From Minutocellus sp. GHC0000111 (lineage: Eukaryota), in the NCBI GenBank assembly GCA_977018835.1, contig OZ361260.1, positions 620,001 through 684,000 on the forward strand: 64,000 bases of DNA, written 5' to 3'. Of the stretch, positions 2,854 to 46,386 are shown piece by piece (within the stretch, counting starts at the first letter, position 1; each line of letters begins with the position of its first letter). Under the pieces are notes generated by a model, which did not search any database, was not told the origin of the DNA, and saw only the letters and a list, made by a program, of their open reading frames with translations. Position numbers and translations under genes: made by a program.

Positions 2854-5100
2854 CTAATCACTGCCACTGTCGTACTCAGAGAGCTCTCCCCGCTTCTTCA
2901 TTGTACGATAACAATCTTTAATCTGCACCGAGGTTCGATCACGAAGTTCCATAGCCCAATCACTCTTGATGAGGGCCCAGCGCCCCACGCCATGTTCGGC
3001 GATGCCCTGTCTAACAGCTTCCTTCTCTTCATCCGTCCACCGCTTGCGTTTCTTGCCGCCACTGCGAGGAACATTGACACCCCGATTGCTCTGAGGCTGG
3101 ATGCGAGGTACCGGCGAGGAAACAGCCTTGCTCTTGGCCGACGGACTTGGGATTTCTTCATCATCAGAACTACTACTGTCGTCCTTGCCTGCACTCGTGT
3201 CCTCATACTCGCTTGATGAAGAGGACGTACAAAGCTTTGTGCCGGTGAGGCGTGGGGTCCGCTTGGGCGACTTGGAGGTAGCGCCAGTTCCACCACGTGG
3301 AGTTTTCTTGGCTGCTGAGGAGGATGCCGATGTGGCGGTAGTAGCCTTTCTACTCTTCTTCCGCTGTCGCAGGGCAACATCCTCGTCAGTACTTTCCTCG
3401 TCGCTGCTGTCGTCATACCTCAGCCGAGGATGCTTCTTACCGGCCGGAGGAGCGGCCTTGGGTTTCTTGTCGTTGTCATCATCAGAACTATCACTGGCAA
3501 GCGATGAATCTTCCTTCGTCGCCCGCGTCTGGGTAGATTTCCTCTCGGGAGATCCCTTGTAATCAAGATCAGAGTCATTTTGAATTCCTCTGGGAGGAGG
3601 TGATCGCCTCACGGGCGTTTTCCCACTACTTTTCTTTCTGCGACGAGATGCTGTGGCCGGCGCCTTTCTACCGCTATCGGCAGAGGCGGCAGGCTTCTTG
3701 CTCGAGGAACGCGTGGCGGCCACAGCAGCGACAGCAGATTCCGTGATAACATTCGATAGAGACTTGTTCTTGAAGTCAGCCGCACGACGGGTAAGTCGCG
3801 AGGGGGTCACTTGAACGTCGTCCTTCGCGCCTTTGATCTCCTCCTCTTCTTCATCACTGGAAGAAGGAGCTTCATTGCGATCGAATCCCGGTGGAGCTTG
3901 AGTGAGAAGAGGCTGGCTCTCGTCGATATCCGACTCTTCTTCTTCGGCATCTTCGTCGTCACCGATGTGCACACCGACCTCAACATCACTATCGACGTCG
4001 TCAAACATGGGCTTGGGTACGGTGGCCTCATCATCGTGATCGTCGTCATCATCATCAGCAATTGGCATATCATCATCGTCTTGATCTCCAGCCCCAGAAA
4101 CCACTTCCTCTGTATCTTGTTCCACGGCCTTGTCATGCCCAGCAGAAACGGCAGCATCTTCCATCTCTACATCTTCAGAGGGTGCTGTTACAGGCACCGA
4201 TCTCTCATTCAGCGGTTGCGTGGCATAACCGCACGAGACCAATGCTGGTAGATCTAGAACAGCGCTGCACCAACCTCGAAGCAAAGATTCTAATTCTGTT
4301 CTGAGCTTGGTGAGCAGTCCTAGTTCCACTTCCTCAAGTCGGACGAGACACTTCTCGGCCCATTTCTCAGCGACATGTTCCAGCCCGTTGGTCAAGTAGG
4401 AAGAGAATTCTTTGATCGTCTTCCGTACAGCGGCAAAGGCCGCGGCATTGATGGCATCACCCTCCGCAGTATCCGCGGTAGGAGAAGAAAGGAGCTTCGT
4501 GATACTATCGAGGTAGCCATCGATGCGCAACTGAACCTGTCGCTTCTTCTTGGCCAACTCCGTCTTGGTTGGAGGCTTTGGCTTGACAGGAGAGGCACCT
4601 GAACGAGTACGAGGGCGGTCGGTTGCAGCTGCTGCAGCAGCAGCTTCAACGCCAACTGCTTCAATTTCACCCTCAACGATGCTTGTTAGCGTAGCCTTGA
4701 GACCACTCAGTGTTCGGTGCAATTCCAGCTGGTCCAAGATATTATCGTACGAGAACTCGAACACATCGAGGTCCTTGCGCTGCTCATCATGATCCACATC
4801 GATCAAACTATTGACAACATCGTCGTGGTGGCTTTCGATGGCTTGAACTGTTGCAGGTGCAAGCGCCATTTGGGCCGAAGGGCTGCAGAGAGTCAGAATT
4901 TGTTGGTTGGCATCTTTTCGCAGCAGGCTGTCCTTCCCGTTGCGCAGAGCCTTGATGATCCTACCCCACTCCTTCTCGCCGTACAGCGAAAGGGGTACAT
5001 CGACGCACATAGTCCGAGCCTTGGTATTCCGAGGAAGCGTTTTCGCATCAACTGTGGGTTTTGTCACAGGATGGGCACAAATGGTCAATACCACTTCCAT
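2854..5100 (-). CDS. Telomere-repeat-binding-factor-like protein with C-terminal single Myb (telobox-like) domain
   Basis: 748-aa ORF with helical N-terminus, long acidic/Ser-rich linker and C-terminal KRKRWTDEEKEAVRQGIAEHGVGRWALIK...RTSVQIKDCYRTM. Confidence 0.8.
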   Translation of the reverse strand: MEVVLTICAHPVTKPTVDAKTLPRNTKARTMCVDVPLSLYGEKEWGRIIKALRNGKDSLLRKDANQQILTLCSPSAQMALAPATVQAIESHHDDVVNSLIDVDHDEQRKDLDVFEFSYDNILDQLELHRTLSGLKATLTSIVEGEIEAVGVEAAAAAAATDRPRTRSGASPVKPKPPTKTELAKKKRQVQLRIDGYLDSITKLLSSPTADTAEGDAINAAAFAAVRKTIKEFSSYLTNGLEHVAEKWAEKCLVRLEEVELGLLTKLRTELESLLRGWCSAVLDLPALVSCGYATQPLNERSVPVTAPSEDVEMEDAAVSAGHDKAVEQDTEEVVSGAGDQDDDDMPIADDDDDDHDDEATVPKPMFDDVDSDVEVGVHIGDDEDAEEEESDIDESQPLLTQAPPGFDRNEAPSSSDEEEEEIKGAKDDVQVTPSRLTRRAADFKNKSLSNVITESAVAAVAATRSSSKKPAASADSGRKAPATASRRRKKSSGKTPVRRSPPPRGIQNDSDLDYKGSPERKSTQTRATKEDSSLASDSSDDDNDKKPKAAPPAGKKHPRLRYDDSSDEESTDEDVALRQRKKSRKATTATSASSSAAKKTPRGGTGATSKSPKRTPRLTGTKLCTSSSSSEYEDTSAGKDDSSSSDDEEIPSPSAKSKAVSSPVPRIQPQSNRGVNVPRSGGKKRKRWTDEEKEAVRQGIAEHGVGRWALIKSDWAMELRDRTSVQIKDCYRTMKKRGELSEYDSGSD

Positions 5101-5612: not shown

Positions 5613-5838
5613 CCTGGTGGTTGATTAGTTAGATTAGGAATTGCCAGGTGGAGCTAATTGATATGCAATGTTCCCTTTGCCGCTGTATCTTGCTTCTCGA
5701 AAAAACGGCACAGCCTTGCCCACGCGTGCGTTGTGTCGACTGTGTCAATTTCTGTCGCGTCTCTCGGTTGACGGACGAACCTTCACACATTTGTCCGTCC
5801 GTCGACCGTAATTCATACCGCTCGAAGCAACGAGCATA

Positions 5839-6316
5839 CAGTCCGTTCTCACCTATAAGCAATTGGTAATTGCTTAGGTGAGGGCTGAGATTTTGCTTTA
5901 TGCTAAGCAATTTGAGGCCTCGTCGCTGGGCAATTGCTTAGTTTCAGAGCTGTTCCAGCAGTTTGCGTCATCTCGGAAACAGCTGGAATGATGATGGAGA
6001 TTACATCCCTCAGGATTTTGGCGAGAGGACGGAGTTTCATGCCTGTCCAAGGAAGACTTCGATACTCTTGCTACTGGCGAGGACATCGGCGTCAGTCTAA
6101 GCGCTTGGTCTGCTGTTAAGCTGGAGTGAGGAAATTTCGACCTTTGTTTGACTTTACTAGCTAATTGTTACTATGTGCATATAGCAATTTGATTAAGCAT
6201 CTGCCACGTCATCGCAATTTAAGCAATTGCTTAGCCCAGACCCCAATTTTTTGAAGTAGTAAGCAATTTGAGGGCTCGGGCCGAGAGCTCAATTGCTTGT
6301 AGGTGAGAACGGACTG
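5839..6316. mobile_element. MITE (Tc1/mariner/pogo-type, non-autonomous), 478 bp
   Basis: 27-bp TIRs CAGTCCGTTCTCACCTA(T/C)AAGCAATTG at 5839-5865 and 6290-6316 (1 mismatch); TA at 5837-5838 and 6317-6318; repeated subterminal AGCAATT/AATTGCT motifs; no long ORF. Confidence 0.93.
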
Positions 6317-6480
6317 TATGGGCCAATGTAGACCTACCAATGGTACAGCAGTCTCCTACATGTAAAAGGAAAGTCTTAGCTTACTTCGGTACTCTATAGA
6401 ATTATTCTACACCTATTATGCAGCCCACATCTACAACACATGAGATACATTTAATCAGATCATTTAGATCTACATGTAAG

Positions 6481-7720: not shown

Positions 7721-9134
7721 ATGAGAATCGATAAGTCTCTGCATGGTCCTATCGACCAGCTGGCTAGCGCCCTCGCGCTGAATTGTCTGCAGCTTGGTGA
7801 GTCTGCTTCTTGAGTTAGCACCAACACTTATTGCCTCAATCTAAACTAATTGTTATTTTCCTTGTTGCAATGTATGTGCAGGATGTGGCATCCAGGATGA
7901 TCCACCGGTGGAGTATTGTTGTGAAAATGCCGATTGGATGACGAAGCTCACGGCAGCCTCACCAGACCTAAAGCTGAGAGATGTCGCCATCCCTGGAACT
8001 CACGATAGCGCCAGTTCCACCATCCAAAAGATGCAGCCCTTCGCTGCAGTCGGACGAACGCAGAATGTGTCCATCTACGACCAACTCCAGCGCGGTGCTC
8101 GCTATCTCGACATTCGTGTAGGTGGAGGCGATGGCCCGACAGACATCTGCATCTTCCATGGATTCCTCAAGGGAGGGAAGTTTTCCACCGTTCTCGACGA
8201 GATCACTCGCTTCGTCAATGAAAATCCTGGCGAATTCCTTTTTTTGGATATTGTCCTCGAATATGGTCGGGAAATGACGGAGCAGCAGAGAGTTCATCTG
8301 TTCGATACCATCAAGACCGCCTGTGGATCCAACATGATTACGACAGAGGATAAAAAGAAATGGTGCAAGTACGGACAGGTTACTCTCGGAGAGCTTGCAG
8401 AGCACAAGAAGAACTATTTCGTTCTGGTCCATGATCGAATTTTTGGGTTTTCCCATAACGGCGTCGTGCACGACGAAGACCACATCAAAGAGAAATATGG
8501 CTTCTTTCGTTCCAATCGCGCTTTGCGTAATAAATGGCACAATACGCGTGACCTGGACCAACTTCTCAAGAGCAACGAGGAGGAATTGGAAGAGTATAAG
8601 GGCAAGAGGAACATGTTCCACAATGCGAGCTACGTGTTCACACCAGGCGTAGGGGGGCCCACCGATATTCTTCACATGTTGGTTGGCCTCAAGAGCTTAA
8701 GACCAGTTTCCTTTGCAAGAATCCTGTACAAATACGATGTTCTTGACGATCACCTTCGAGCCAAAGCTGACGAACCATTCAATCTCGTGACCTTTGACTT
8801 TATCGACTTGGCACCTGCACTCGTTTGCTTTCTCATTGGACTGAACTTTCCCTCAAAGCTGGAAGTAATGGAGGCCAAGGTTGCTGGTGGAGGACAGGAC
8901 AGCATCGATGTTACCGAAAAGATCAAGACATACACCAAGAGAGGCAATTGTCTCTACCTGACCAACATCCAGCAGGATCTGGCTTTGGACTTTGCCGTTG
9001 GCGATCTTTCCATTACTTTCAAGTTTGACGACGAGAGCAAGCCCCAACGCCACGACATTTCCTTCGATGAGGACACGGAATACCTCTTGCACAGATATCA
9101 CCACAACGAAGGCAACATGTGTGTGGTCGATTGA
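7721..9134 (+). CDS. Phosphatidylinositol-specific phospholipase C X-domain protein (2 exons; intron 7797-7881)
   Basis: IPGTHDS, QNVSIYDQLQRGARYLDIR and FHG motifs; the gtgagt...tgcag intron joins exon 7721-7796 in frame. Confidence 0.9.
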
Positions 9135-9595
9135 GAAAGATGGCATGGGAGAACAATTCCGAGTAGATACATGTAGATAACCTGACAATTAGAGACGAAT
9201 CGAATCTTTGTTTACAGATTCTGAGAGGATGAAGCACTTTTTGCTTGCTTGCTCTAGCTAGTCTACATGCATTGCATGCATGCTTGCTTTTTGGGCGATC
9301 GATCGATATCGATAGGAATTCCTACCAATCTCCCGGTTATGGGTGCACCCTGCAACCCTCATTCATCATTCATCGCGCTCGCTCTGCCTTGCTTACGAGG
9401 TCCGGGACAGCAATTTCGGGGACCCGGGTTTTTGGGTCTTTGGACTTTCCGACACGGCGGTTTGCGCGCACCTTGAAAAACACGCGGCAAAGCAAGCAAA
9501 TCAAAACACACCCGTCAACAACCGACCTCCAAGCAATTACCACAAATAGACTGGGCAACTTCTGCCGACTGGCGCTTCAAGAAGCTTCCATACTC

Positions 9596-10731
9596 ATGGA
9601 TACTCCAAAGGGACACATCTTCAGTCCACCGCGTCCACCGAAACGCGCCGAGGCGACTGCATTCAGCCCCTCGCGCCATGAGAAGGAAACTTCCAACGAA
9701 ACGCCGGAACATCCGCGGTATCGAGAGAACAAGGACAACGATGACGAGGAGGACAACCAAGGGGTCCCACCGGCATCGTCAGACCTCACATCTCCTCGTG
9801 TGTTGAAATATCGACGCGAGTACAACGAAGAGGATGGCTTCGCCGCCGAACAAGCCCAAGCAAGGAAGTACTTGCATCATGACATGTTGCGTGCCGACTT
9901 TCGCGGTACCGCTACCGTTTCATCTCATTCTGATGAAGATGATTCATTCTCAGAGATGAGCATAGCAACCGCCGACGCCAAGCCAAGCGGCGAGAGGAGA
10001 AAGCCCGTGAGCTCACTCGACCTTCCCTCCGCCACGCCCATGGTAACAAGTCCAATGTCAGTTCATACTCAGTATGCTCTTACCCCAAGCCGCTCATGCC
10101 CGTCGTTCAGCAACCTTCAATTGTCATCCCCTACCATCTTGGAGCCCTTGCCTCCAACCGAACCAACCGAACGACAGATTGAACGAGAGGTTGAGGAACA
10201 TCGGAGGCTTGCGTGCTTTTTGACGTACGGAGAAGCACCACTACCACAAGATATAAAGAACTACAAGTCACCCACATGTAGTCAGAGGCCCGAACCAAGA
10301 AGAAAAGAGAAAGGGGTCTACCTCCCCTTCAAACAAGTTCCTGGTTGGGGTAGCGAGGTCGCGGTCACCACAGTGCTAGGCATGATCGAAGTCGATCGCC
10401 AAGTAAGAGAGGGTCGTGGTGCCTACCCGAAAGGGTGGAGAAGCAGAGAACTCGGATTGTATGATAACAAGACAATAGAATTCTCTTTGCATTATCTACT
10501 GACAAGATTGCATTAGATGCATATAAGTTGGGATATGAGGATGGGAGTAAACAACCAACTGCTCACCCTGCCCTCACTGACAATAAACTTGCCTATGCAT
10601 ATGGTGTGAAGCGCGGAAAGATTCGTCAGTCCCTCCACGCTGTGTGGCTTTCTGATGATCATAAGAAGGCCAAGGAGGCAAAAAAGAATACCGGTAGAAA
10701 TAGAAGAACAAAGAAGCCCACCGTGATATAA
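9596..10731 (+). CDS. Second (passenger/accessory) gene of the mariner element, ~378 aa, unknown function; frameshift near 10465
   Basis: ATG at 9596 inside the left TIR boundary. Frame 1 runs to 10516. A second frame opens at 10468 (QDNRILFALSTDKIALDAYKLGYEDG...) and ends in basic KKAKEAKKNTGRNRRTKKP at 10731. Confidence 0.6.
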
Positions 10732-10826
10732 ACAAACCAATGCTGCTGCATCTTACATGTAGATCTATAAATAATTTGTAGACGTGTAACATTTATTTAA
10801 TACATGTGTAAAGATATTAATACTAT

Positions 10827-13765
10827 CTATTTATTAGAAGGATGACGAGCTGAGGGCTCCATCCCCTTGGCCGTTTCGTTGAAGTCGATCCTAATTCCAG
10901 TGTGCAAGTTTTCGTCACCCAACCTTCCAACAAACTCATTGCTACCACCGGCCTTAATCACCAGGCCCATTATCCTCCAGTGCTGAATGAAGGCCGAAGC
11001 AATTTTGCAGTTAGGCATGCTATCGTAAACGTCCTCGGCAGTGTCCCAGATCTGGTCGGTGGAAATGACGGAGGTGCCTACCATTTTTCGTGCCCATTCC
11101 GAGTGCCGCCGGCTCATCGCGGGGAACACGCTCAAGTCAAGGACGTTGGCGTGAGGCATCTGCGGTGCCTGTGGCTGCCACGTCCAGCCTTGCTCAGCAC
11201 AGAAGTTAGTAACAAATTGCGTGAAGGTTCCGTCCTCGTGAGGCCCGGCCTGGTCGCCCTGGATAATAACATGGCAATCTTCGTATTGCTTGCCCGGACC
11301 GACAAGGTTGAGAATCGCTGGGAAAATAGTCTCCTTGAACACGAGGAGCAAAGAGCATTTCGGATCCTTTTTGGTGCCTTCGTTCGATCCAGTAACGCAA
11401 CAATCAACAAGAAACGACTCTCCTTTCCGGCGAAGAGGTTCCTTTGGTGTCCCATCGGGGTTGGTATTTTGGTGCCGTATTGAACCATCAGGCTGTGTCA
11501 CTGCTTCGCACTGAGCTCGCTCCGCTATTTTAGGAGCTTGAGCTCGTACCAGTGGCAGTTTTACAACCTCGCACCCATTCTCAAGAGAACCGTCAAAGAC
11601 AGCGGCAACAAATGCAATGGCCATGACCTTGTTGATGTGGCTCCTGTGAAAGGCCGCGTAATCTCGCTTTTTCACGCCGATTTCCTCGCAAGCCTTCGCA
11701 AAAGCTCGGAGGACGAGACCCCAGAACCATTTCTCATCGTAATGCACGAGGAGAACTCGCTTCTTTCCATTCGGTAAATTGCCGTTCTCATCCCGAATGT
11801 TCCAGAAATTCCGCACGAGCTGAGCAAAGGCCAGATGCTTAGCTTTTTGAGCCTCCGACAGGCGCGGTACCAGCCGCTCCTTGTAGAAAGTGAAGATGTC
11901 GAATGACTTGAGCCACCGCTCAATCGTCTTGTGCGAGCACCACAGACCAATGTCCTGCTCCAAACCACGGAACGATCGCTGAGGATTGCTGGAAAGGGCC
12001 GCAACAATGTCGTTCTGTATATGTACGGCTGCCTTGCCAAGTGCTCCCGCCTCTTCAGCTCCCACAGCTGCTTGTCATCGTCGCTGATGGTGTCGTACTC
12101 GGTCAGGTACGTTTTGAGCAACTCATTGTCAGCCTCCTTCGATACAGAATCATAGCAGTCTTCCTTTGCCTCTCTGCACTTATTGATTGCATGCAGGCGC
12201 TTAGCAGTAAAGTACTGCTCAGCCGTCTTGTAATTGTCAATGGCAGACTTTGGCCGAACCGACGAATCCTTGGGAGCGGGGGTGACAAATGCAAGCTCGG
12301 CCTGATCTGCTGGTATGCCCCGGGCAATGGCATTCTTCCGAGACTCGTTCTGGATGTCTCGCAGCCCATTCTTACCCTTCCCCCACGCTCTGCAGAGCTC
12401 ACGAATAGTGACCCTCCCATCCGACTGAAACTTCTGAGATGAACTGTTCCTACTTGAGTGCTGCGTCCCTCCGGTGCTCTTCAAATGCACTTCCAGAAGC
12501 AATCCCTGGGAAAAAAGCATGCTCTTCTCCTCGTCGTTCAATCCCTTCTTGCCTTTGGTTGCTCGATTCGCCTCCTTTCGAAGACATCCATCCTTCTTCC
12601 TGTATCGCATGCCATGCAAAAGCATTCCGACAAGAGTCTCCATCGGACTGCCATCGCTCTTTGCACGCTTATTGGCACCGGCGCTGTCAACACTGTCCAT
12701 CCCCGCCTGAGCAGCTACTGTCCGTTTGCGCCTGTCCTTGGCAATTGAATCGGTGTTGAGGCCGAGTGGGATCGGGGTGATGACCTTGAGAGGCACATTC
12801 TTATGCATCATGCCACCAAAAGGCTTCTCATGCTGGACATCGCAAAGAGTGCCTCCACCGACACCTCGACTGACCACAACAAATCCCTTGCCCTCAGGCC
12901 GATTCATGTTGGGACTGAAGTCGGCAGACACAAGGACATGTTCCCCAGTGCTGATGGCAGGTCGCATGTTGTCTTCCATTCTCATTGCTTTCTTGCGTTC
13001 GGTTGGTGCATCCGTCGGCATCCTGTGCGACCGAAGATGTTCACGCATTTGTACCCTCTGCTCCAAATGACGCATCGCCTCCTCCTTTACTTTGTTCCTT
13101 TTCTTCTCGGCATCGGCCATGGCCTTTTCATCCTTCCGCTTTTCTCGTTTCAAGGTGTCCCTTAGCCCTTTCAAAGCCTCCTCTGCAGCTTTGTGTTGCG
13201 CTTCGGCGGCCTCAACCAGCAGCACATCCAAATTCTCCTCGGTCGATCCACCAGAATTGGCGGTGCCGGTAGCAGAAACACCGACACTGGCAGGATTGCC
13301 AGATTCTTCACTGTTGCCGCTTCCATCCACCACCATGGACTCGGCGATGCCCCCAGCTTCGATGTTGTCATCACCAGGACGAGCAGTGACACCAGCATTG
13401 TCCTCGACCGTCGGCTCAGGGCTGGCATCGGCGTTATTGGATGACGAATTGCGCCGAGCAATTTGAATTTGAGAAATCGGCACATCTTGTGCCGGATCAG
13501 GACCGGTCTGGCTCGGACAGCACAGCTCCTCCTCTCGGGCTTGCTCCATGACATCCTGCTGTTTCTGAAGTGAGAGGCTCGCCCATGCCCGGTTCGCTAT
13601 GGTCTGGATCATCCCAGGAGACTTGCCACGAATCGTAGAGGCATCGACGGTGCCGCTCCGATGGACAAAGTAATCAAAGCATGGGATGGAGCTGCCGGAC
13701 CGACGGGAGCGGCGACACGCTGGCGCATCAGCTGCGGTGGCAGCAGTAGCAACAGCCATTTGCAT
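10827..13765 (-). CDS. Large mariner-like DD38D transposase (~978 aa after removing a 2-nt TA insertion near 12020)
   Basis: Catalytic motifs VHYDEKWF, IQGDQAGPH and QAPQMPHANVLDLSVF resemble plant DD39D mariner motifs IDEKWF/QQDNA/QPPNSPDLNVLDLGFF, with 38 residues between the last two Asp. ORFs 11672-13765 and 10827-12065 join as QPYI-QNDIV if one TA is removed. Confidence 0.9.
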
Positions 13766-14393
13766 TAATATGGTGTTGGATGCAGTATTTTGTGGCAGTA
13801 GAGCAACAGTTTGTATGTCGGGTGGGTTGGAAATGAGGAAGGTTTCATTGAGTGGCGGGCGCGCCCGGGCGGGTGATGATTTTTTTGGCCCGCTCGATTT
13901 TGGCGCGGGGTCACCCGGACCGCATAAGATACGCCATTATGGGGACCATGGAGACCGATATCGGAGCTCAAACCATATGGCTACTTGAATCAATGCATTT
14001 GGGAGGTGGTGGTGGGGTCGGGAGGTGGAGGAGGTGACCGGTTGTCATCGGAAAAACTGCTGGCAGAAGTCGGGAGGGGCGATGGATGGGGTGAATCGGC
14101 CAGACGCTGGCATGGGAAGATGAAATCGATATCTCCGAGTCGGTCCAAGGTCAAGGACCAACCCGTTCTGGAGATACCACGCTTATCCCTTGCGTGAAGC
14201 GGATGCCGTCGGCACTGCCGTCACCGCCATCTTGAAGACAGGATGACAGCAAATAAATGCTGCAAGCTGCGTGCGTTTGTGCTGATTTTTATGAGATTTT
14301 GCCCAAAGACCCGAAAACCGGGTCCCTGAAACTGCTGTCCGCGACCTCGTACGCACTTACGCATCTGGGCTCGTTTCGCTGCCAAAACGCACC

Positions 14394-17300
14394 ATGAGGT
14401 CAACTGGCGCCCCCGCGCCGCTGTCCCCGACTTACGAAGACCGGTCGGTACATGCTCCACAGCAGGGGCAGCAGGGCCTCTTCCTGTCGGCCGTCGCCGG
14501 TGACGATGCATCGCCCTCCCCAATGAGAAGTCGAAACGCCTCGCCCCTTGGCGTCAACCCGGCAGCCTCCGCCGCGGATGAGCAGGATCCCTCTGGATCG
14601 GCGGCGGCGGCATCCCGATTGCTGGCCGTTGCCAATTACGGTCCCTTCAGTCCCAGCGGCTTGGCCACGGCCACGGGTTTGGCCCAATCAGACTTTGAAG
14701 AGACATGTGATGCGCATGATGGGAGGGCGTCGAGTGGCCATGTGCGTGTGTCCTCTCCTACTGGTGCGGCAGCAGCGCAGTCGTTTGCGTCAGGGACGGC
14801 AATCGCTCTGTCGGGTCCGCACGGGATAGCCATTTTGCGCTCGAACAAGCCACACATTCCCAGCGTGGTTTTGAGCCATTCGACACATACTGCCGGTGGA
14901 AGTGCTGGATGCGGACCGTTGGCCTTCCAACCCTTGAGCGACGACCACACTGAGGCAGGTGGCAGTGGCGGCAGATCGACCATGCTACTGGCGACGGCGC
15001 GTGGTTCTGGCGTGTTGGTATGGGATGCGTCGGGTCGAAGTTTGAGTCCATTGCTCGGTAGGCTTGGTGTTGATGGAAGGCACCCGCCAGCTGCTGGTGT
15101 CAAGTTATCGTTACCACATCCTCCCGCAGCGATGCCCGCCAGCAGCAGCAATTCTGTCGTATCATCACTTCCCACTCCAAAGCCATCGACATTGGGATTA
15201 TCGGCCAATAACAATACCGTGGCAGCGCCCAACTCGTCGAGCTACGATATCGTCACATCCCTCTGCTGGTTGTCGGCCAATAGTCCAACTCTAGTAACCA
15301 CATCGGCTCGATCGGCAAGTATCTGGGACCTTCGCTGCCCATCGATTTCGAGACTCCGCCCGTCGACACGCTACGAGCTTGGTGCGGGTAGCTTCGATGG
15401 TGGGGGGTTTGTCAGCTGCGCCGTTGCGGGAGATGGCAGCCACGAGGTGGCCATTTTGGATGGAAGCGGCGTTGTTCGAATTTATGATACTCGGATGGGT
15501 GGATCACACCACCAACAAAGCAAAGGTCAGCACACGAATTCCGATCACCCGCTGCACGCCTTCTACGCACACGAGTCATCTGGAGTTGGGATATCCCGCT
15601 TACCTCTGTCGACCGAAGGTCGTCGTGGCTGGTTGACGTGGGGCTTTGATTCCTACGACGCCGAAGGCGCAGTAAAGGTATGGAGGGAAGGACGCCGTGA
15701 TCCCAACGATTCCAGCGAGATTGTCATCGACTCCGATGACTATTGGAGTCCTCGGCCGGAAGTGGCGAACGCTGTCGATGCTGCACTCGATGCATCCGGC
15801 AATGATTCTCGCCATTTTGAGCTCACAGCGACGTTTGGGTCGTCATCGGGAGCTCTTAGTGCAGCTCGGGTCGTACCCCATCCGTATGGCAATGCCGTGG
15901 TCACTATTGGAGCGGAACAAGACGGTGGCTGGAAAGCGGATTATTGGGCTCTATCCGAGAGCCAGAATACGTCGGACGAAGATTTGATGATTACTGGCGG
16001 TGTATTCGGAGCGAAACTGGAGGGATCTTTCCAAGGTGGCAATAAGTGCAATGATGCATTACGACAGGTGCTAGGCGGATCATCAGATCTTGGATATCTA
16101 ATCCAAGCCGACCTAGCAGTTGGAGCACCATCAGTTCAAGCGGACCATGGTCAGAGTGACTATTCGGAGCTCCTCCTTTGTTGTCTGGGCAGCTCAGGTT
16201 TCCTTACTACTCATGTTGTCTCTGAAGCCATCCCAACAAGAGGAGTGTTAGAAGCTGTCGGTTCTTCCAGTACTTTGTATTCTTCACCTAGGCGAAAAGT
16301 CAACGCTCAGCGCATGGTTCGGACTGATGCTGACTTTATGAATCAACAAAGCCGAATGTATCGACCCAGCTCAGACCCAAATCTGCACCGAAAGAACTTT
16401 GAGGATCTGCGAGATGAAGGGCCACTCAAATTTTCTCGCCCAGATAGCAGTCAGCATGTCGAAGGCAGGGGTGCCATGCAGGCCTCCGAGCTCTCGAACA
16501 TTACCCCCGAGGATGCCTACGCGTATGGGCGATCATCTAACCTGCCAGTTCAAGAACAGGAAAGCCTCCCTGAAGCAGTTACAAGCATATCCCGTGGGGT
16601 TGAAGGTGCTTTATTTCAATTTGAGCTGGACGTGGCGGGCGATGTCGCTCCCAACGCTGCTACACCGACTGAAGGTGTAGCCAAATCACCTGCCAATGCC
16701 GCCGATGCGGTTGCCAAGGGCGACAATATGGAACCACAAGGTGTTGCGTCAGGATCCAGAACATCGACAGTGGATCCTTTCAGAGCGATGAACGTTCCTT
16801 GTCCAAGATTATGCGGTGCTACCTTTGGCAGGGGCGGCGGCGGCATGATCATTTTCTCGAATGGTGACGTTCGACGCCAGTGGACCTGGTTTCAGGCGGA
16901 ACAACAGTCGGGTAGAGATGCAGGCAAGCACCAAATTAGCAAGGCCGATAACAAAGTCCGAAAACCGAAGGCAGACAGCGACAAATCGCAGCAATGTCCG
17001 AGAACGATGCTTGATCTCATGAGGATGAACGCTGCAGCAAAGATTGCACAGTGGGGGGTGGACGATGCCGACGAGGATAGCGGCCAGAGTGACGACGAAT
17101 CCTCCGTAGGATCGGACGACTCCTCAAGTTCTTCGTCTTCTTCCTCCAGCGATGGCTCAGAAGAGTTTGAATCTTTCTTTCTTCAACAGACAACTTCTGG
17201 CGGAGATGACGGATACGCTGAAGATGATGCTAGGCATTCTAGTGCTGGTGCACTCACTCTCGCAACAACAGCCAGCGGTAGATCATCTCTACCTCCTACC

Positions 17301-19194
17301 ACCAAGGAAAAGGGCACCGTCTCTTCAGCTTCATCCGCCCTCCAGCAAGCGAGCCGTTCGTCGAAACGGAGTTCTACAAGAAAATCAACGTCGGGCACTG
17401 GGCCTGACGATGCCTTTTTGAATCCAGCAACGGACCATCTTGCTCCTGTTGTTACCTTCACTCAAAATTATGACTTTCTCGTAATGAACGGCCAGTGTCC
17501 GGAACTCGCTGATAGCATGGAAGTTGGCCCATGGGGTCAAGTTTATCATGATGAAGGCATGCTTCGTTCTCTGGTGAGCTCTACCGCCTTGTCCGGTTCT
17601 CGTGTAAGCTTAAGTAGCGATGGGTGGGGTTGGATAGAAGAGCCGGAGCAAAAGGTCGTTCACCGAGTCAGCCCGAAAGAAGAGGGTAAGTTTCTCTTTT
17701 TGAATTCTATGCATATCTTTTCTTCCCATCACGAAATAGTTACAAAGTTGACCTCACAAATACTTTGCTTAACCCGTTACTATCCCATGGATTATTTCAC
17801 GACGTACCATTTTTATAGACAAAACAAAGAACAAAATCACAACGCGTCCATTGTTTCCGTCCCTATCATCAATTGGGCGGCGGTTTAGTATGAACCCTTC
17901 CAAGAGAGATGCAGCCGCCACGCACGCAAACAAGGAACCCCCATCGCCTCTTTCTCCGTCCAAATCCTTCCCCATCATTCAGCATGCGCTATCAGAAACT
18001 GCCCCGCTCCCGCCCCCACTCACAAGGATGAAGGAGGAGGCAGGACATTCGAGTAGTATGTCAGATGGATTCAATAGCCTGTTCTACTCTCCATCACCCG
18101 ACGATATCGCTGTGATCCCGCCTGATCAGAATATGCTTCCAGTCACTAGAGCTCGGCCGCGCACTCCGATGCGAAGTAGTCGAGAATCCCTTACCGATAC
18201 AACAAACACCAACAATAGCACCATCGACGCAGACTTTCTCGGAGTCCGAATGGTCGCCCAAGTCGAAAGATTGTCTGATTTTTTCCTAAAGCAGTGCGAT
18301 TTGACTGTAGAGCTATGCATCTACAATGCCGCTGTCTGCATGGATCTCAAGCAGAAAGACAAAGCTGATACTTGGTCATTGCTCGGCCAAACTGTTGAGC
18401 ACATGGGAAGAGACCTCCACAATAATTTCGGCGGTTGGGGAGGACCTGGAGGTGGTGCTCTCGGCAAGGAAATCGTTGCCGGAATTCTACAGTACTACGA
18501 GTTGCACGGTGACGTTCAGATGCTCGCCACCATAGTTTGTGTTCTAAGCGGAGGCGTTGGCAGACATGCGGTCAGAGATAAGGACCAAACCTCCCGGGAG
18601 GGGCTCACTGATTCCTACGTTCGCAATCTCCTTCCGGACGATGATCGCCGACTAGACTCCTACATTACTCGATACGCCACTCTGCTATACCAGTGGGGCA
18701 AAATTACTACGCGCGCAGAACTAAATAAACATCTGGCTCAGTCATCGCACGAAAGCAATACTAGTAGAAACCAAGTCCTTGGAGGCGAAGTTTTGGTGCC
18801 TATTGGGTCTGGCGATGAAGGCCGACTCCAGAAGAACTTTGTTTCGCCGCCGGAATCTTTGCCTGATAGCCCAGGGGTGACCTTTGCCCCGCTGTGCCCT
18901 CGCTGCCAGAAGCCAGCGAATACGGAGACGAACGTATGCGAGGAGTGCAAGCAATATGCATTCAAATGTTCGATATGTGAGACTTCCATTCGAGGATTAT
19001 TCACCACATGCTTATTGTGTGGCCACGGCGGTCACGTAGAACATCTATTGCCTTGGTTTGAGAAGGAAACCTGTTGTCCGTCAGGATGTGGCTGTTCTTG
19101 CGTCCTGACGACATATACAAGCGAAAAAGTTGTAGCCGTTGGAAGCGATAAAGCCATCCACGCCCCGCGCATCAAGGCAATGGGTTGGCAGTGA
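14394..19194 (+). CDS. WDR59: GATOR2/SEA complex subunit, WDR59/Sea3-like (WD40 repeats + C-terminal RING-like Zn finger); intron 17686-17818
   Basis: WD repeats (VLVWD, ASIWD, VRIYD, VKVW), VPCPRLCGATFG, GDVQMLATIVCVL, C-terminal CSIC...RGL...CLLCGHGGH...WF...CPSGCGCSC; the gtaagt...tatag intron keeps frame. Confidence 0.85.
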
Positions 19195-19358
19195 TGCATC
19201 GTAAAGTACTTAATAATATAGAACGCCTCGATAACAAATTGTGTGTTTAATAGCTAGAATGTCGCACGGGCAGTATTCTATTGCATTGCCTTGGCACTAC
19301 GTAGCTGAAACTCTTCACCAAATAAAAAAGGTCTCGGTACCATGGTAGATCGATAAAG

Positions 19359-20893
19359 CTAGGTTAGCTGGAACCCCTCCGCTTTTGGGCCCACAAAAGA
19401 TTCGCTGGCAATTATTCTCACAGAAACTTGTTTACTGAAAAGACTAAAGCCAAGGTATTCGTATTCCCACCCAAACTTTTCACATGCTTCCTGGAATGCC
19501 TTGTATTCATCCTCCGGCCACGTCGGTGTCATCAAGTATTCATCAAAAATTAAAACAGAGCCGGGGCCGATCCTGTTGCTCAGATACTGCAGAATTTCCT
19601 TTGTTCCTTGATAGAGGTCACAATCTATGTTCACCAGCCTCACGGGAAGATCTTCCGGCGGCGGTAAACTTGCGACATATCCTGGCAAAGTGTCGGCAAA
19701 CAAACCAACGTGAAATCGAACATTTTCGGGAACTCGTTCAGGAATTTCATTGCTGGCTGTATAAGAGCCCGCTTCTTCCTCACCCCATTGTTCCGGTATG
19801 CCTGTAAAAGTATCAAATCCATCGACCGGATTGTTGAGTCCAACCATTTCAGAGATGAGACGAATGGATTTGCCGTGGAACACCCCAAATTCAGCCACTA
19901 TGCCATCGGGTCGAGCCATACGCAGCGCCTCATCAAGCATTGTGTGGGTCCCGGCGAATATCCGCCCCTGCGGGTTCCTTTCCAAAAGCTCGGAAGGATA
20001 GTGTGACATGGTGTATTTCCAGCTATCTCTCAAATATTGGTCGACAGACACCGAAACTGCATTTCGATCCCCATGAAGAAGACCATGCGCCATAGACCTG
20101 TAAAACTTTGCCATTTGTAACCGTTCCTCTGCATCTTGCATTGCTTCTTCGTTTCCTTCACTGCCATCATCATCACCGTTGGCTTGTTCCATTGATTCGA
20201 TACAAGAGTCCCAAAGAAAGATAGCTTCGTCGAGCCTTCCTTCGTCGGCAACAAAGAACGCCTTTTGATACCATGCAATAGCATTGCTCTCTGGTGTGTA
20301 TTCATATCCTACTGTCTCCAAGGCATCATCAACATGATGCCTCTTTTCACGTCTCCTAGATCATGTGCCCAGAGATGAGCAAGCTTGAGTTCAACATCAT
20401 GGCTCAGTATTGGATCGGCCGCGTCGTTCTGTTGTGCGAGCTCATACATTTCAATCGCTCTCTGTGGTTCGCCATTCTCCTCCAACGCCATGGCCAAGTT
20501 AAACTGCCGATCTACCGTCGGATGAAGTTCCAGTGCCTCTGTGAAGGAGGCAATGGCTGCATTGAGCGCTCCCTTGGACTGCAGTTCGCGACCTCTGGTC
20601 GTTGCCTCGTAGGCCTTCACTAGATCAGCGCCAGTAGTTGCAACGGTGGCCGGTGGCTCTTTGGGCTCATTCTTGACACCAAACCCTCCCCTAGCACCTC
20701 CTCCCTTGCTTTTGTTCTTTCTTTTGGATGGCCGAGACGATGAGGCGCCGGCACCGAAGCCACCACCCGCTGCTTCCAAGGCAAAAGAAGAAGCGGCGTG
20801 TTTCCTGGTCAAACGCAAAGGCTGAAAGGCGTTGCCGAGGTGGCCCGCCGTCCATAGTAGCAGCAGGGACGACGATACTCGTAGGGTCGTCAT
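19359..20893 (-). CDS. Plastid-targeted TPR protein fused to a TylF/MycF-like class I SAM methyltransferase; frameshift near 20337
   Basis: Signal peptide ending GNA-FQPL; TPR helices; EFGVFHGKS, GFDTFTGIPE, GLFADTLP, NIDCDLY, LIFDEY. The frames join as GI-HVDDALETVG with no intron. Confidence 0.8.
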
Positions 20894-21080
20894 GGTTGCT
20901 TTTGTTCTGTGCGTGCGTGCGTCACGCCAGCGTCGCGTCACAGAGCTCGCAACCTGACTTGAACGTCTGACTGGCGGCCAGACGGCGAGATCGTGGCAAG
21001 TGATGGTCGTGGGGCATAATTGTTGGGCAGCAAAACTTCCGCAAGCAAAAGCAGCAGCAGTCGTAGTCAGCCATTGACAC

Positions 21081-24362: not shown

Positions 24363-25502
24363 ATGACGACTCATCCTGCCCACAAATCGGCACCGAAGCA
24401 CACTCTCTTGCATCTTGTTCTCAATTTATTAATCTTTGCATCGGCATCATCCCAGGCGGCATCGTTCGTGCCCCATAACGACCCCCCGCCATCTCCATCA
24501 ACACAGCAATTCATCGATCGTGTCCAGACCAGCCCACGAAGTGAGGTGAAGATGCGTGCCTGGACCTGTCATGGACGAACTCAGAAGGAAATGGTCGATA
24601 AGTTGGCGTCGGTGAGTTGATATCAATAATCGTGGCCAATGAATTGCTTTGTTCGTGGATTGTTCTCTGTTCTACAATTCGATCCCACACTTACCCAATA
24701 ATATCTTTGTACATAATCGTGGCCAAAGAATATCTTTATTTATGGATTGTATCTGTTCTACAATTCGATCCCACACCTGACTCATATTTTTTTCGCACAC
24801 TCCCACACCCATATCTTTTTCCAGGCCGGGATCATCAAACACAAACCCACGCAGGAGGCCATGATCAAAGTTGATCGAGCCAACTATGCCGGTGGTCGAA
24901 GCGGTGCTTACGTCGACTCGCCCCAGCCCATTGGATACGGTCAAACGATTTCGGCGCCTCACATGCATGCCCATGCCCTGGAGGAACTGATGCCCACTCT
25001 CCAAAAGGCTGCGCTGGACCACCCCGATGAGGAGATCAAGATACTTGATGTTGGCTGTGGCAGTGGCTATCTCACCGCGTGCTTTGGTCGGCTCGTCGAT
25101 CGTGGTCCCAACGGACCCATCCTTCCCGTCAAGGGCCGCGTTTATGGCATTGATGCCTGGAGCGAGCTTGTGGACTTCTCCCGGGCCAACATGATGAAGG
25201 AAGACTCGGATTTATTCGACTCTGGTACCGTTTCGTTGCAGTATGGCGATGGATGGGAGGGTTTGCCAGACGCTGGTCCGTTCAATGCCATTCACGTTGG
25301 GGCTGCTGCAGCAAGCTTTCCGAAGTCTCTAATGAGACAACTTGCTGTTGGTGGAATAATGGTCATTCCAGTAGGGCCCGACGGAGGGGTCCAAAGTCTC
25401 TATAAAGTGGAAAAGGTGAAAGACTCCCCAAAGTTTGATGAAGACGATTATATGATTAAAAATTTGCTCGGGGTGAGATATGTGCCTCTGTTTCATCCCT
25501 GA
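24363..25502 (+). CDS. PCMT1: Protein-L-isoaspartate O-methyltransferase (PIMT) with N-terminal targeting extension; intron 24612-24824
   Basis: YVDSPQPIGYGQTISAPHMHA, LDVGCGSGYL, GDGWEG, PFNAIHVGAAA, GVRYVPL. Confidence 0.93.
24626..24776 (+). repeat. Diverged direct repeat (~65 bp, period 87) inside the PIMT intron
   Basis: ATAATCGTGGCCAA...TCTGTTCTACAATTCGATCCCACAC at 24626-24690 and 24713-24776. Confidence 0.85.
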
Positions 25503-45630: not shown

Positions 45631-46386
45631 TTACTCCCAACTACTTTCATTTCTTTCATCTTCGATATCACATTCGCCATATACTTTCATACAATCACCA
45701 GGATCATCTGGAAGTTGGCATTCTCCAAACACATAGCAACGAAGAATACCTTCCACCGCAGCAATGTGCTTCTTTGACACGGCTCTTTCTTCGCATAGGC
45801 CTGCCACTGGGTGGTATATATGGCTGAAAGGGAGACTGGGTATACCCAGGGCTTCGTGGAGCAATTTGGTCTGCTTAGTGAGAGGGACCTCGACGAATTT
45901 GACATTGCGCGCAAGGGCAGACGAATGAGTCGCGTAGTCATAAGCGAGTTTGTAGAAGAGCGGAGCAGAGGCCCGACAACTCGCACAGTACGAAGCAAAG
46001 AATCGGACGACAGTGATCTGATTGGACTCATTCACGACGATATCTTTGTACTCTTGAATTGACTCGACGCGTTGGACAACGTCCTTTCCATGCTTAGGCT
46101 TCGTTGATGGGATCTTTCTTTTCGATATCTTGTTGTGAATATCTTTGTATCCTTGAGTCGAAGGGGTGGAAACTGCGACGTCCTTTCCATGCTTAGGCTT
46201 CTTTGATGGGATCATTCTTTTCGATATCTTGTTGTGAACATTGTCTTCGTATTCTTGGGTCGAAGGGGTGGAAACGGCACTGAGCACCTTGGGCGAATTA
46301 TTTGTCGATGCAACTGCTAGCAAAGTGAAGGCGGTCACTCCAAATGGGGCGAAAGCGAGGAGAGAGATAGGTGCAAGCGGAGCCAT
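45631..46386 (-). CDS. Plastid-targeted atypical thioredoxin-like protein (YCASC)
   Basis: Signal peptide VTA-FTL; VVRFFASYCASCR, VKFVEV, LGIPSLPF. Confidence 0.85.
   Translation of the reverse strand: MAPLAPISLLAFAPFGVTAFTLLAVASTNNSPKVLSAVSTPSTQEYEDNVHNKISKRMIPSKKPKHGKDVAVSTPSTQGYKDIHNKISKRKIPSTKPKHGKDVVQRVESIQEYKDIVVNESNQITVVRFFASYCASCRASAPLFYKLAYDYATHSSALARNVKFVEVPLTKQTKLLHEALGIPSLPFSHIYHPVAGLCEERAVSKKHIAAVEGILRCYVFGECQLPDDPGDCMKVYGECDIEDERNESSWE
46079..46275 (-). repeat. In-frame tandem duplication (~99-bp period) in the thioredoxin leader
   Basis: VSTPSTQEYEDNVHNKISKRMIPSKKPKHGKDV / VSTPSTQGYKDIHNKISKRKIPSTKPKHGKDV; DNA copies at 46079-46173 and 46178-46275. Confidence 0.92.

What the first reader, a model, noticed from the sequence alone, without database searches (positions are those of the whole stretch)
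9396..14349. Giant two-gene mariner: 4.95-kb TA-flanked element with a DD38D transposase and a convergent partner gene
Seen: ~48-bp CGAGG-initiated TIRs, TA on both sides, and two convergent genes whose stops (10731 and 10827) are separated by a 95-bp AT-rich spacer. Known: typical Tc1/mariner elements are about 1.3-2.5 kb and encode one ~350-450-aa transposase, whereas two-gene layouts are typical of PIF/Harbinger, CACTA and MuDR. Inference: this may be an undescribed two-component mariner lineage related to plant DD39D elements.
Basis: partly seen in the sequence, partly recalled or inferred. Interest (0 to 1): 0.88.

Follow-up and report, generated by a model that had tools for sequence, protein, structure and literature searches.

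The report
Mariner transposon with transposase-derived helper gene
This is a real, multi-copy cut-and-paste transposon of a long-transposase mariner-like family that carries a second gene whose only folded part resembles a predicted DNA-binding domain of that family's transposases, so it likely acts as a regulator of the element, as TnpA does in plant Spm elements.

Summary
Observation confirmed: a 4,954-bp TA-flanked element with 48/47-bp TIRs, a DD38D transposase (~977 aa) and a convergent 378-aa ORF A. Both genes are frameshifted only in this copy. The element is about 100-fold deeper than its flanks in a DNA run, and TIR plus ORF A occur at 11 other flanks, so ORF A is no one-off capture.

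ORF A is a disordered acidic arm, one five-helix domain ending in a predicted helix-turn-helix, and a basic tail. That domain is homologous to an internal domain of this family's transposases (hhalign 89%, controls under 1%), closest to distant members rather than its own. Two divergent homologs conserve it.

The two-gene layout is not lineage-wide. A complete sister element with near-identical TIRs lacks ORF A, 15 of 21 relatives with a visible end have no second gene, and another branch carries an unrelated selected gene in the same slot.

Best reading: a TnpA-like, transposase-derived regulator (function untested, ~0.4). The DD38D family, with predicted Tudor-like and HMG-like domains, was not found in the papers searched. 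Repbase and Dfam could not be checked.

The parts
9394..9395 (.). TA target dinucleotide, left
9396..9443 (+). Left TIR, 48 bp, begins CGAGGT
   Evidence: about 85% identical to the TIRs of sister elements L001-L003
9596..10731 (+). ORF A, 378 aa when intact (P0037); this copy lacks one A at 10486. Disordered acidic Ser/Pro/Thr-rich arm (about 1-234), folded domain, basic tail (353-378, 10 K/R of 26)
10349..10644 (+). Five-helix domain of ORF A (about residues 252-350) ending in a predicted helix-turn-helix (329-350); homologous to the 'GWR' domain of the family's transposases
10732..10826 (.). 95-bp AT-rich spacer between the convergent stops
10827..13765 (-). Transposase, about 977 aa when intact; this copy has a 2-bp insertion at ~12018
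11136..11738 (-). Catalytic triad: D at 11738, D at 11255, D at 11138 (DD38D; 160 residues between D1 and D2)
11820..12011 (-). Tc3-type helix-turn-helix (Pfam HTH_Tnp_Tc3_2, E 3.6e-8, above the gathering score)
12023..12271 (-). Predicted HMG-box-like domain (Z 7.1, rmsd 2.9, 73 residues vs HMGB1 box A; middling score)
12323..12646 (-). Five-helix 'GWR' domain of the transposase, the homolog of the ORF A domain; the family's conserved Trp is replaced in this element's clade (P0001-P0003)
12764..12958 (-). Predicted Tudor/KOW/SH3-like beta-barrel (Z 7.5, rmsd 2.5, 56 residues vs PHF19; tied with several other SH3-fold barrels)
11791..13082 (.). Stretch missing in the commonest deletion derivative; in frame (1,290 bp without this copy's 2-bp insertion); removes all four predicted binding domains and keeps the DD38D core
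14303..14349 (-). Right TIR, 47 bp
14350..14351 (.). TA target dinucleotide, right

Best explanation
This is a mutated copy of a multi-copy, TA-flanked mariner-like transposon with a DD38D transposase and a second gene whose folded domain is homologous to a predicted DNA-binding domain of the family's transposases, and that second protein likely binds the element's own DNA to regulate it, most probably to keep it expressed. Shown: ends, TA flanks, two genes, many insertion sites, the domain homology, conservation of that domain. Inferred from the family: the transposase binds the TIRs, excises the element and inserts it at TA. Inferred for ORF A: an ancestor took up the N-terminal DNA-binding part of a distant family member, without a catalytic domain; the product (disordered acidic arm, helix-turn-helix, basic tail) has the build of a transcription factor and would act like TnpA of Spm elements or VANC of VANDAL elements. 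It looks optional, not a required subunit.
For: Profile-profile match of the ORF A domain to the transposase GWR domain: probability 88.9%, E 2.4e-6, 72 columns. In the sliding control all 21 reversed windows and the 16 forward windows not overlapping the domain scored under 1%; the 5 overlapping windows scored 3.7-89.8%. An HMM of the 3 ORF A proteins hits 4 of 36 transposases at E<0.01 (best P0028, 4.5e-8), and in the alignments printed the match lies in this domain. Two models folded from separate alignments give the same helix order: ORF A 252-271, 281-285, 294-315, 329-336, 340-350; transposase 112-125, 132-136, 149-168, 192-198, 205-219. Against P0053 the domain is 62% identical (73/118) and the linker before it 26% (24/91), so it is under constraint. 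ORF A travels with the element: 11 stored proteins read from 11 different flanks through the left TIR; clusters of 35 and 150 members; ORF A half about 19,000-21,000 deep against about 200 for flanks in X10; the four internal deletions near the transposase middle all spare it. Precedent: Spm TnpA has an HTH domain derived from an ancestral transposase and is encoded separately (bioRxiv 10.64898/2026.08.24.746577, abstract, passages and section 6). Tyr-to-His/Cys exchanges are 38 of 131 replacements among transposase copies, a sign that the host mutates these repeats.
Against: No binding or regulatory activity was tested. Expression is not shown: RNA-run contigs also cover the TIRs and other flanks, two of them (X2, X15) run across the spacer, and the excess over flanks could be DNA. 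Fold matches of the ORF A domain are weak (best Z 5.1; HTH proteins such as LsrR, KorB and TnpE at Z 4.0-4.5; Foldseek none at E<0.001). The reverse HMM tests are weak: the whole-transposase profile does not beat shuffles, and the domain profile ranks P0058 first (E 0.004) but one shuffle outranks P0037. In a quick tree the ORF A domains sit on a long branch among distant transposases, not with the element's own, so their DNA specificity may not be for these TIRs. The sister element lacks ORF A yet is seen at three different flanks. The genomic context of P0053 and P0058 is unknown, so the link of ORF A homologs to transposons rests on one family. Activation versus repression is not separable by these data.
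Confidence: 0.4

Rival explanations
1. ORF A is a brake: its helix-turn-helix occupies the TIRs and blocks pairing of the ends, limiting damage at high copy number.
For: Same domain homology. Mariner synapsis needs a naked second end, so end occupancy inhibits it, and Tn5 uses a truncated transposase as inhibitor (PMC4013102, passages). The domain lies first of two HTHs, where mariners carry their TIR-binding module.
Against: The family with ORF A is highly amplified. The domain is closer to distant transposases than to its own. Mariners already self-limit by overproduction inhibition. The long acidic arm, 45% conserved in residues 1-130, is not needed for simple occlusion.
Confidence: 0.2
2. 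ORF A is a hitch-hiking relic: a captured piece of another family member's transposase gene with no present function, amplified because it lies between the TIRs.
For: Absent from 80 of 80 related loci and from the sister element; only 2 divergent homologs among 1.84 billion representatives; many copies truncated; expression not shown.
Against: P0053 is intact over 360 aa with the same layout and stop position at 42-44% identity, and conservation peaks in the domain. Another branch has a different gene in the same slot with dN/dS 0.14-0.66 in 6 of 6 pairs, so this slot can hold selected genes.
Confidence: 0.2
3. A split transposase is arising: ORF A supplies DNA binding in trans to the ~550-aa catalytic protein of the in-frame deletion derivative, as in two-gene PIF/Harbinger elements.
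For: The commonest deletion (11790 to 13083) is in frame, removes all predicted binding domains and keeps the DD38D core. Its depth is similar to the intact middle in 3 runs of 3 studies (X10 8576 vs 7721; X2 43 vs 56; X7 46 vs 50). The element's own GWR domain has lost the conserved Trp that ORF A keeps.
Against: One deletion in three is in frame by chance, and the two other deletions tested are out of frame. The joint is not listed in X1, X4, X9, X15 or X20, and the tool marks its between-letters as not known. Full-length copies can mobilise derivatives. The ORF-A-less sister has the same Trp loss.
Confidence: 0.08
4. ORF A targets other DD38D families in the same genome (the kind its domain came from) and interferes with these competitors.
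For: The domain groups with P0023, P0028, P0029 and P0017-type transposases.
Against: Long branch (2.1) and quick tree only; no such family was shown in this genome because none is held.
Confidence: 0.06

Closest known systems
PlantMar / DD39D family of Tc1/mariner (Dupeyron et al. 2020, PMC7325037, passages)
   Same: DDD triad of similar spacing, short TIRs, length within 2-6 kb, stramenopile members known; the catalytic half of a relative is nearest to clusters of mostly streptophyte and diatom proteins, and its GWR domain weakly (0.78, lead only) to DUF7769 clusters of plants and oomycetes. Motif likeness around D1 and D2 is recalled, not tested.
   Different: DD38D in 33 of 37 proteins (1 with 39, 3 unparsed); transposases of 735-999 aa in the length-selected set, with predicted Tudor-like and HMG-like domains; second gene; named relatives are from the diatom Nitzschia inconspicua.
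TnpA of Spm/CACTA elements (bioRxiv 10.64898/2026.08.24.746577; abstract, passages, section 6)
   Same: Separately encoded accessory protein whose HTH domain derives from a transposase and is flanked by disordered sequence. This is what ORF A likely works like.
   Different: Different superfamily; TnpA has two tandem HTHs and is required for transposition in maize, ORF A has one predicted HTH and is missing from an intact sister; ORF A is convergent and closer to distant transposases, so capture fits better than splicing. The word 'mariner' does not occur in that preprint's main text.
Ciliate TBE and Tec elements (PMC7325037, passages)
   Same: Multi-gene members of the same superfamily.
   Different: Three ORFs, DD34E, accessory genes are a zinc-finger protein or a recombinase, telomeric or ~700-bp TIRs.
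VANC of VANDAL elements (PMC10398659, search listing only; also passages in the preprint above)
   Same: Element-encoded sequence-specific anti-silencing protein.
   Different: Mutator superfamily; no homology tested or claimed.
PIF/Harbinger two-gene elements (features recalled)
   Same: Catalytic gene plus a separate DNA-binding gene.
   Different: 3-bp target, Myb/SANT partner, obligate pair; here TA, no Pfam match for ORF A, and the transposase keeps its own HTHs.

Membership tests
IS630-Tc1-mariner superfamily | Terminal inverted repeats | tested here: met
   48/47 bp, 87.5%; same CGAG(G/C)T start across relatives
IS630-Tc1-mariner superfamily | TA at both ends | tested here: met
   Window and L001 on both sides; other flanks part at 9394 or 14351; one CA-flanked right end seen in X2 and X9
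IS630-Tc1-mariner superfamily | TA is duplicated on insertion (empty site) | tested here: inconclusive
   Element-free haplotype differs over about 70 flanking bases; no clean empty site listed
IS630-Tc1-mariner superfamily | DD(D/E) catalytic triad | tested here: met
   Three Asp invariant in 35 of 35; relative's catalytic half matches DDE_3 clusters at 0.92. No Pfam DDE hit and no hit to solved transposases by sequence; the catalytic fold was not predicted.
IS630-Tc1-mariner superfamily | Tc1/Tc3-type HTH before the catalytic domain | tested here: met
   PF01498 in the window protein and in 31 of 35 relatives
PlantMar / DD39D | 39 residues between D2 and D3 | tested here: not met
   38 in 33 of 37; 39 in 1
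PlantMar / DD39D | Falls inside the PlantMar clade in a tree | not testable with these tools
   No reference DD39D sequences were returned by any search; the tree holds family members only
PlantMar / DD39D | Length 2-6 kb, short TIRs | tested here: met
   4,954 bp; relatives with both ends 2.3-3.7 kb
mariner sensu stricto (DD34D) | DD34D spacing | tested here: not met
   DD38D
TBE / Tec | Three ORFs, DD34E, zinc-finger or recombinase partner | tested here: not met
   Two ORFs, DD38D, no Pfam or NCBIfam family for ORF A
Spm TnpA (works-like comparison) | DNA-binding domain derived from the family's transposase and encoded apart | tested here: met
   Homology and separate gene shown; DNA binding itself is only predicted
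Spm TnpA (works-like comparison) | Helix-turn-helix fold of the domain | tested here: inconclusive
   Helix pattern fits; best Z 5.1, HTH proteins at Z 4.0-4.5
Spm TnpA (works-like comparison) | Sequence-specific activation or demethylation of cognate copies | not testable with these tools
   Needs experiment
Spm/CACTA (membership) | CACTA ends and 3-bp target duplication | tested here: not met
   CGAGG ends, TA flanks
PIF/Harbinger | Obligate Myb/SANT partner and 3-bp target (recalled) | tested here: not met
   TA flanks; intact sister has no partner; no Myb/SANT Pfam match

The most novel reading that the evidence does not exclude
An undescribed algal DD38D branch of the mariner superfamily, with long transposases bearing Tudor-like and HMG-like domains, has an exchangeable accessory slot between the transposase stop and the TIR. 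It was filled at least twice with selected genes, one being a transposase-derived DNA-binding regulator, the first TnpA-like factor in this superfamily. In the boldest form, it also partners an amplified catalytic-only transposase, a mariner caught splitting into two components (about 0.08).
Probability: 0.35. Interest if true: 0.82.

Novelty: new variant of a known kind. Interest (0 to 1): 0.66.

Why it matters
Mariner-type transposons are the textbook one-gene elements. A 2026 preprint argues that accessory regulators such as Spm TnpA arose from transposase DNA-binding domains; this element would be an independent case in another superfamily, with a natural control in the one-gene sister element that has near-identical ends. 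That makes the role of the accessory gene directly testable. The family also offers long transposases with predicted chromatin-reader-like domains, and a young high-copy element in a probable diatom, a group with few characterised DNA transposons.

Tried and rejected
No genome is held for the window, so copies were judged from run contigs and stored proteins, not from a consensus of loci. Assembly artefact or chance ORF: rejected. Intron at either break: rejected, both are small indels absent from other copies. One-off capture: rejected. Lineage-wide two-gene layout: rejected. Homology of ORF B to ORF A or to the transposase: none (hhalign 0.1% and 0.6%). N-terminal HMG box in this element's transposase: weak only (5%). 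Complex prediction of the transposase GWR+HMG part with the ORF A domain: score 0.00, no verdict, alignments not used; no evidence either way. No relatives of the transposase or ORF A in viral contigs or prokaryote genomes. No Pfam or NCBIfam family for ORF A. The Atlas does not hold P0037 or P0053. The family profile found no solved transposase by sequence. X20 covers only 10965-11260 and says nothing. RNA contigs of X4, X7 and X9 stop near the spacer but at different places (10813, 10653, 10719), while X2 and X15 cross it: not counted as evidence of transcripts. The careful tree did not finish; quick trees were used. Literature: 'DD38D' anywhere gave 11 papers, 10 listed, one on transposons, where it appears to be a slip for DD38E/Intruder; searches listed no description of this family. 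Motif search in the supplements of PMC7325037 found nothing in 6 text files, not even a recalled plant motif used as control, so its alignment is probably not held and the test is void. Two recalled plant motifs gave 0 papers. Two-ORF L31 elements of bivalves are recalled and were not found among the 20 papers listed. PMC1461862 is not held.
Full report
1. Observation. The element spans 9396-14349 (4,954 bp), with TA on both sides and TIRs of 48 and 47 bp that are 87.5% alike. Two genes converge on a 95-bp spacer of 26% GC. The minus-strand gene (ATG 13765, stop 10827) is a transposase with a Tc3-type HTH (PF01498, E 3.6e-8) and three aspartates invariant in 35 of 35 aligned sequences, spaced DD38D. 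The plus-strand gene, ORF A, runs from 9596 to 10731. Each gene has one frameshift in this copy (10486, ~12018). Both are absent from the covering contigs of X2, X4, X7, X9 and X15 and from part of those of X1 and X10, and intact proteins are stored (P0037, P0084, P0094). This is a decayed copy of a family with two intact genes.

2. Copy number. No genome is held. Of 24 runs listed, 19 hold half or more of the element's words; I laid 8 of them. In X10, single contigs over the ORF A half are 18,700-20,945 deep, the transposase middle 7,721, the flanks about 170-250. The tool warns that depth is no copy number, so I read this only as roughly 100-fold amplification. Contigs leave the element into other flanks at both ends, and 11 stored proteins read from 11 different flanks through the left TIR. 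A half-depth haplotype lacks the element but also differs in the flanks, so the TA duplication is not shown directly. The host is not identified; the only named relatives of the transposase are from the diatom Nitzschia inconspicua (42-44%).

3. The family. A search restricted to proteins over 728 aa gave 36 relatives of 735-992 aa; shorter relatives were not searched. Of these plus P0094, 33 of 37 are DD38D (31 parsed, 2 counted by eye), 1 has 39, 3 were not parsed. Eighty related metagenome loci (the best 80 of 90) show ends starting TA-CGAG(G/C)T and complete elements of 2.3-3.7 kb. The N-terminal half of the window transposase folds well (mean pLDDT 83.9): a beta-barrel like Tudor/KOW domains (Z up to 7.8), a five-helix domain that I call GWR after its motif, and an HMG-box-like domain (Z 7.1). 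These Z values are middling and show fold, not function. The catalytic half of P0027 is nearest to clusters of mostly streptophyte and diatom proteins and to DDE_3 clusters (0.92-0.95). Kinship to PlantMar is therefore a lead, but DD39D is not met and no reference tree could be built.

4. ORF A. It has no Pfam or NCBIfam match. Besides near-identical copies, a search of 1.84 billion representatives found 2 divergent homologs among 15 hits: P0053 (360 aa, 44%) and P0058 (99 aa, 56%); a further search with the P0053 domain added none. The model is disordered up to about residue 250 and confident over about 280-350 (pLDDT about 80 in its helices). That domain aligns with the GWR domain of the transposases: hhalign 88.9%, E 2.4e-6, with 37 of 37 reversed or non-overlapping control windows under 1%; the ORF A HMM hits 4 of 36 transposases at E<0.01. 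The two models, built from separate alignments, share the order long helix, short helix, long helix, helix-turn-helix. Against this, the reverse HMM searches are weak and fold searches give only Z up to 5.1, many of them HTH proteins. The domain is 62% identical to P0053, the linker before it 26%. It scores best against distant transposases and below zero against its own, and a quick tree places it on a long branch away from P0001-P0004. So it looks like an old capture from another branch rather than a recent self-duplication.

5. Distribution. ORF A is in 0 of 80 loci. L001 is a complete 3,706-bp element, TA-flanked, with TIRs about 85% identical to the window's, a 78%-identical catalytic region (dN/dS 0.07 against the window) and 409 bp after the stop with no trace of ORF A; L001-L003 have three different flanks. 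Of 56 loci that reach the transposase end, 21 show an end motif downstream: 15 have no second gene (14 with 188-409 bp, 1 with 669 bp), 4 carry an unrelated convergent ORF B, 1 has a doubtful GC-rich frame (L020) and 1 motif is probably chance (L005). ORF B (about 155 aa) is in 7 of 80 loci, with dN/dS 0.14-0.66 in 6 pairs against 0.05-0.07 for their transposases. In a quick tree of 37 rows (L073 and L074 left out as too short or unparsed) the window element is sister to P0002, then to L001/L003, and far from the ORF B clade (100 support). Two independent gains are the simplest reading; a loss in L001 is not excluded, because the contexts of P0002, P0004, P0053 and P0058 are unknown.

6. Derivatives. 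The commonest deletion, 11790 to 13083, is in frame once this copy's 2-bp insertion is discounted, with a 3-base microhomology. It would give about 550 aa with the whole catalytic core and none of the predicted binding domains. It is about as deep as the intact middle in X10, X2 and X7 and is not listed in the other 5 runs. Two other deletions are out of frame. One in three is expected in frame by chance, so the split-enzyme reading stays a minor rival.

7. Mechanism. Cut-and-paste at TA follows from the superfamily. For ORF A I commit to a sequence-specific regulator of the element, likely activating or anti-silencing (0.4). Its build (acidic Ser/Pro/Thr-rich arm, HTH, basic tail) is that of a transcription factor; Spm TnpA is a precedent for a transposase-derived HTH regulator (supplements not seen); and the host mutates these repeats (Tyr to His or Cys in 38 of 131 replacements among 15 stored copies; 4 of 8 window C/G-for-T/A transitions are at TpA, where 12% of T's are). 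Rivals: end-occluding brake (0.2; PMC4013102), functionless relic (0.2), split transposase (0.08), interference with other families (0.06). Expression is not shown, since only contigs were available and they include TIRs and flanks.

8. Novelty. Multi-gene members of the superfamily are known (TBE, Tec) and PlantMar elements reach 6 kb, so size and gene number alone are not new. Ten paper searches listed no description of a DD38D algal family or of a transposase-derived accessory gene in a mariner; Repbase, Dfam and subscription journals were out of reach. Two unchecked notes of this scan report two-gene diatom elements with a cysteine-rich partner; ORF A has 3 Cys in 378 residues and seems a different gene, but I could not compare sequences. 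Verdict: new variant of a known kind, interest 0.66.

Noticed in passing
L013:1395-1901, L016:2331-2858, L053, L065, L066, L073, L074 (minus strand): A distant branch of the same DD38D family carries an unrelated convergent gene (ORF B, about 155 aa, likely coiled coil, no Pfam match) between the transposase stop and the TIR, with dN/dS 0.14-0.66. L065 and L066 keep it while their transposase is cut short.
   Followed up: partly
window 12023-12958 (minus): Predicted Tudor/KOW-like barrel and HMG-box-like domain inside a mariner-type transposase; 4 of 35 relatives also have a Pfam HMG box. Possible chromatin targeting, untested.
   Followed up: partly
copies P0001, P0093-P0106; window 9886, 10654, 10982, 11340: Strong excess of TpA-to-TpG/CpA changes among copies (Tyr to His or Cys in 38 of 131 replacements), in line with scan note e1-9871287 on TA-erasing mutation in repeats.
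   Followed up: partly
window 14340 to 9457 (X15) and 14349 to 9403 (X1): Right end joined to left end: excised circle or head-to-tail pair. The X1 junction keeps a single CG, which self-complementary 2-base overhangs would give (inference).
   Followed up: no
window 14349 (X2, X9) and 9395 (X4): At least one insertion appears flanked by CA rather than TA. Several other flanks match the window out to 9390 or 14355, a hint of a TGCN-TA-NGCA preference that other flanks do not share.
   Followed up: no
window 9134-14394: The element sits between a PI-PLC X-domain gene (stop 9134) and 44 bp before the first ATG (14394) of a long ORF without Pfam match, on one haplotype only. X2, X4 and X9 share a different sequence upstream of 14593.
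   Followed up: no
window 9657 to 14314 (X1): Very short derivative (about 300 bp, MITE-like) at single-copy depth.
   Followed up: no
L032:2-3430; L012:1-270 and 2857-3126; L033:27-82: Two family transposases in tandem (L032); an inverted repeat of 270 bp at the contig ends (L012); a member with different ends starting CTATCTCC (L033).
   Followed up: no
window 5835-5865 and 6290-6320; 24626-24776; 46040-46278: A 31-bp inverted repeat pair 486 bp across (possible MITE) and two short tandem duplications.
   Followed up: no
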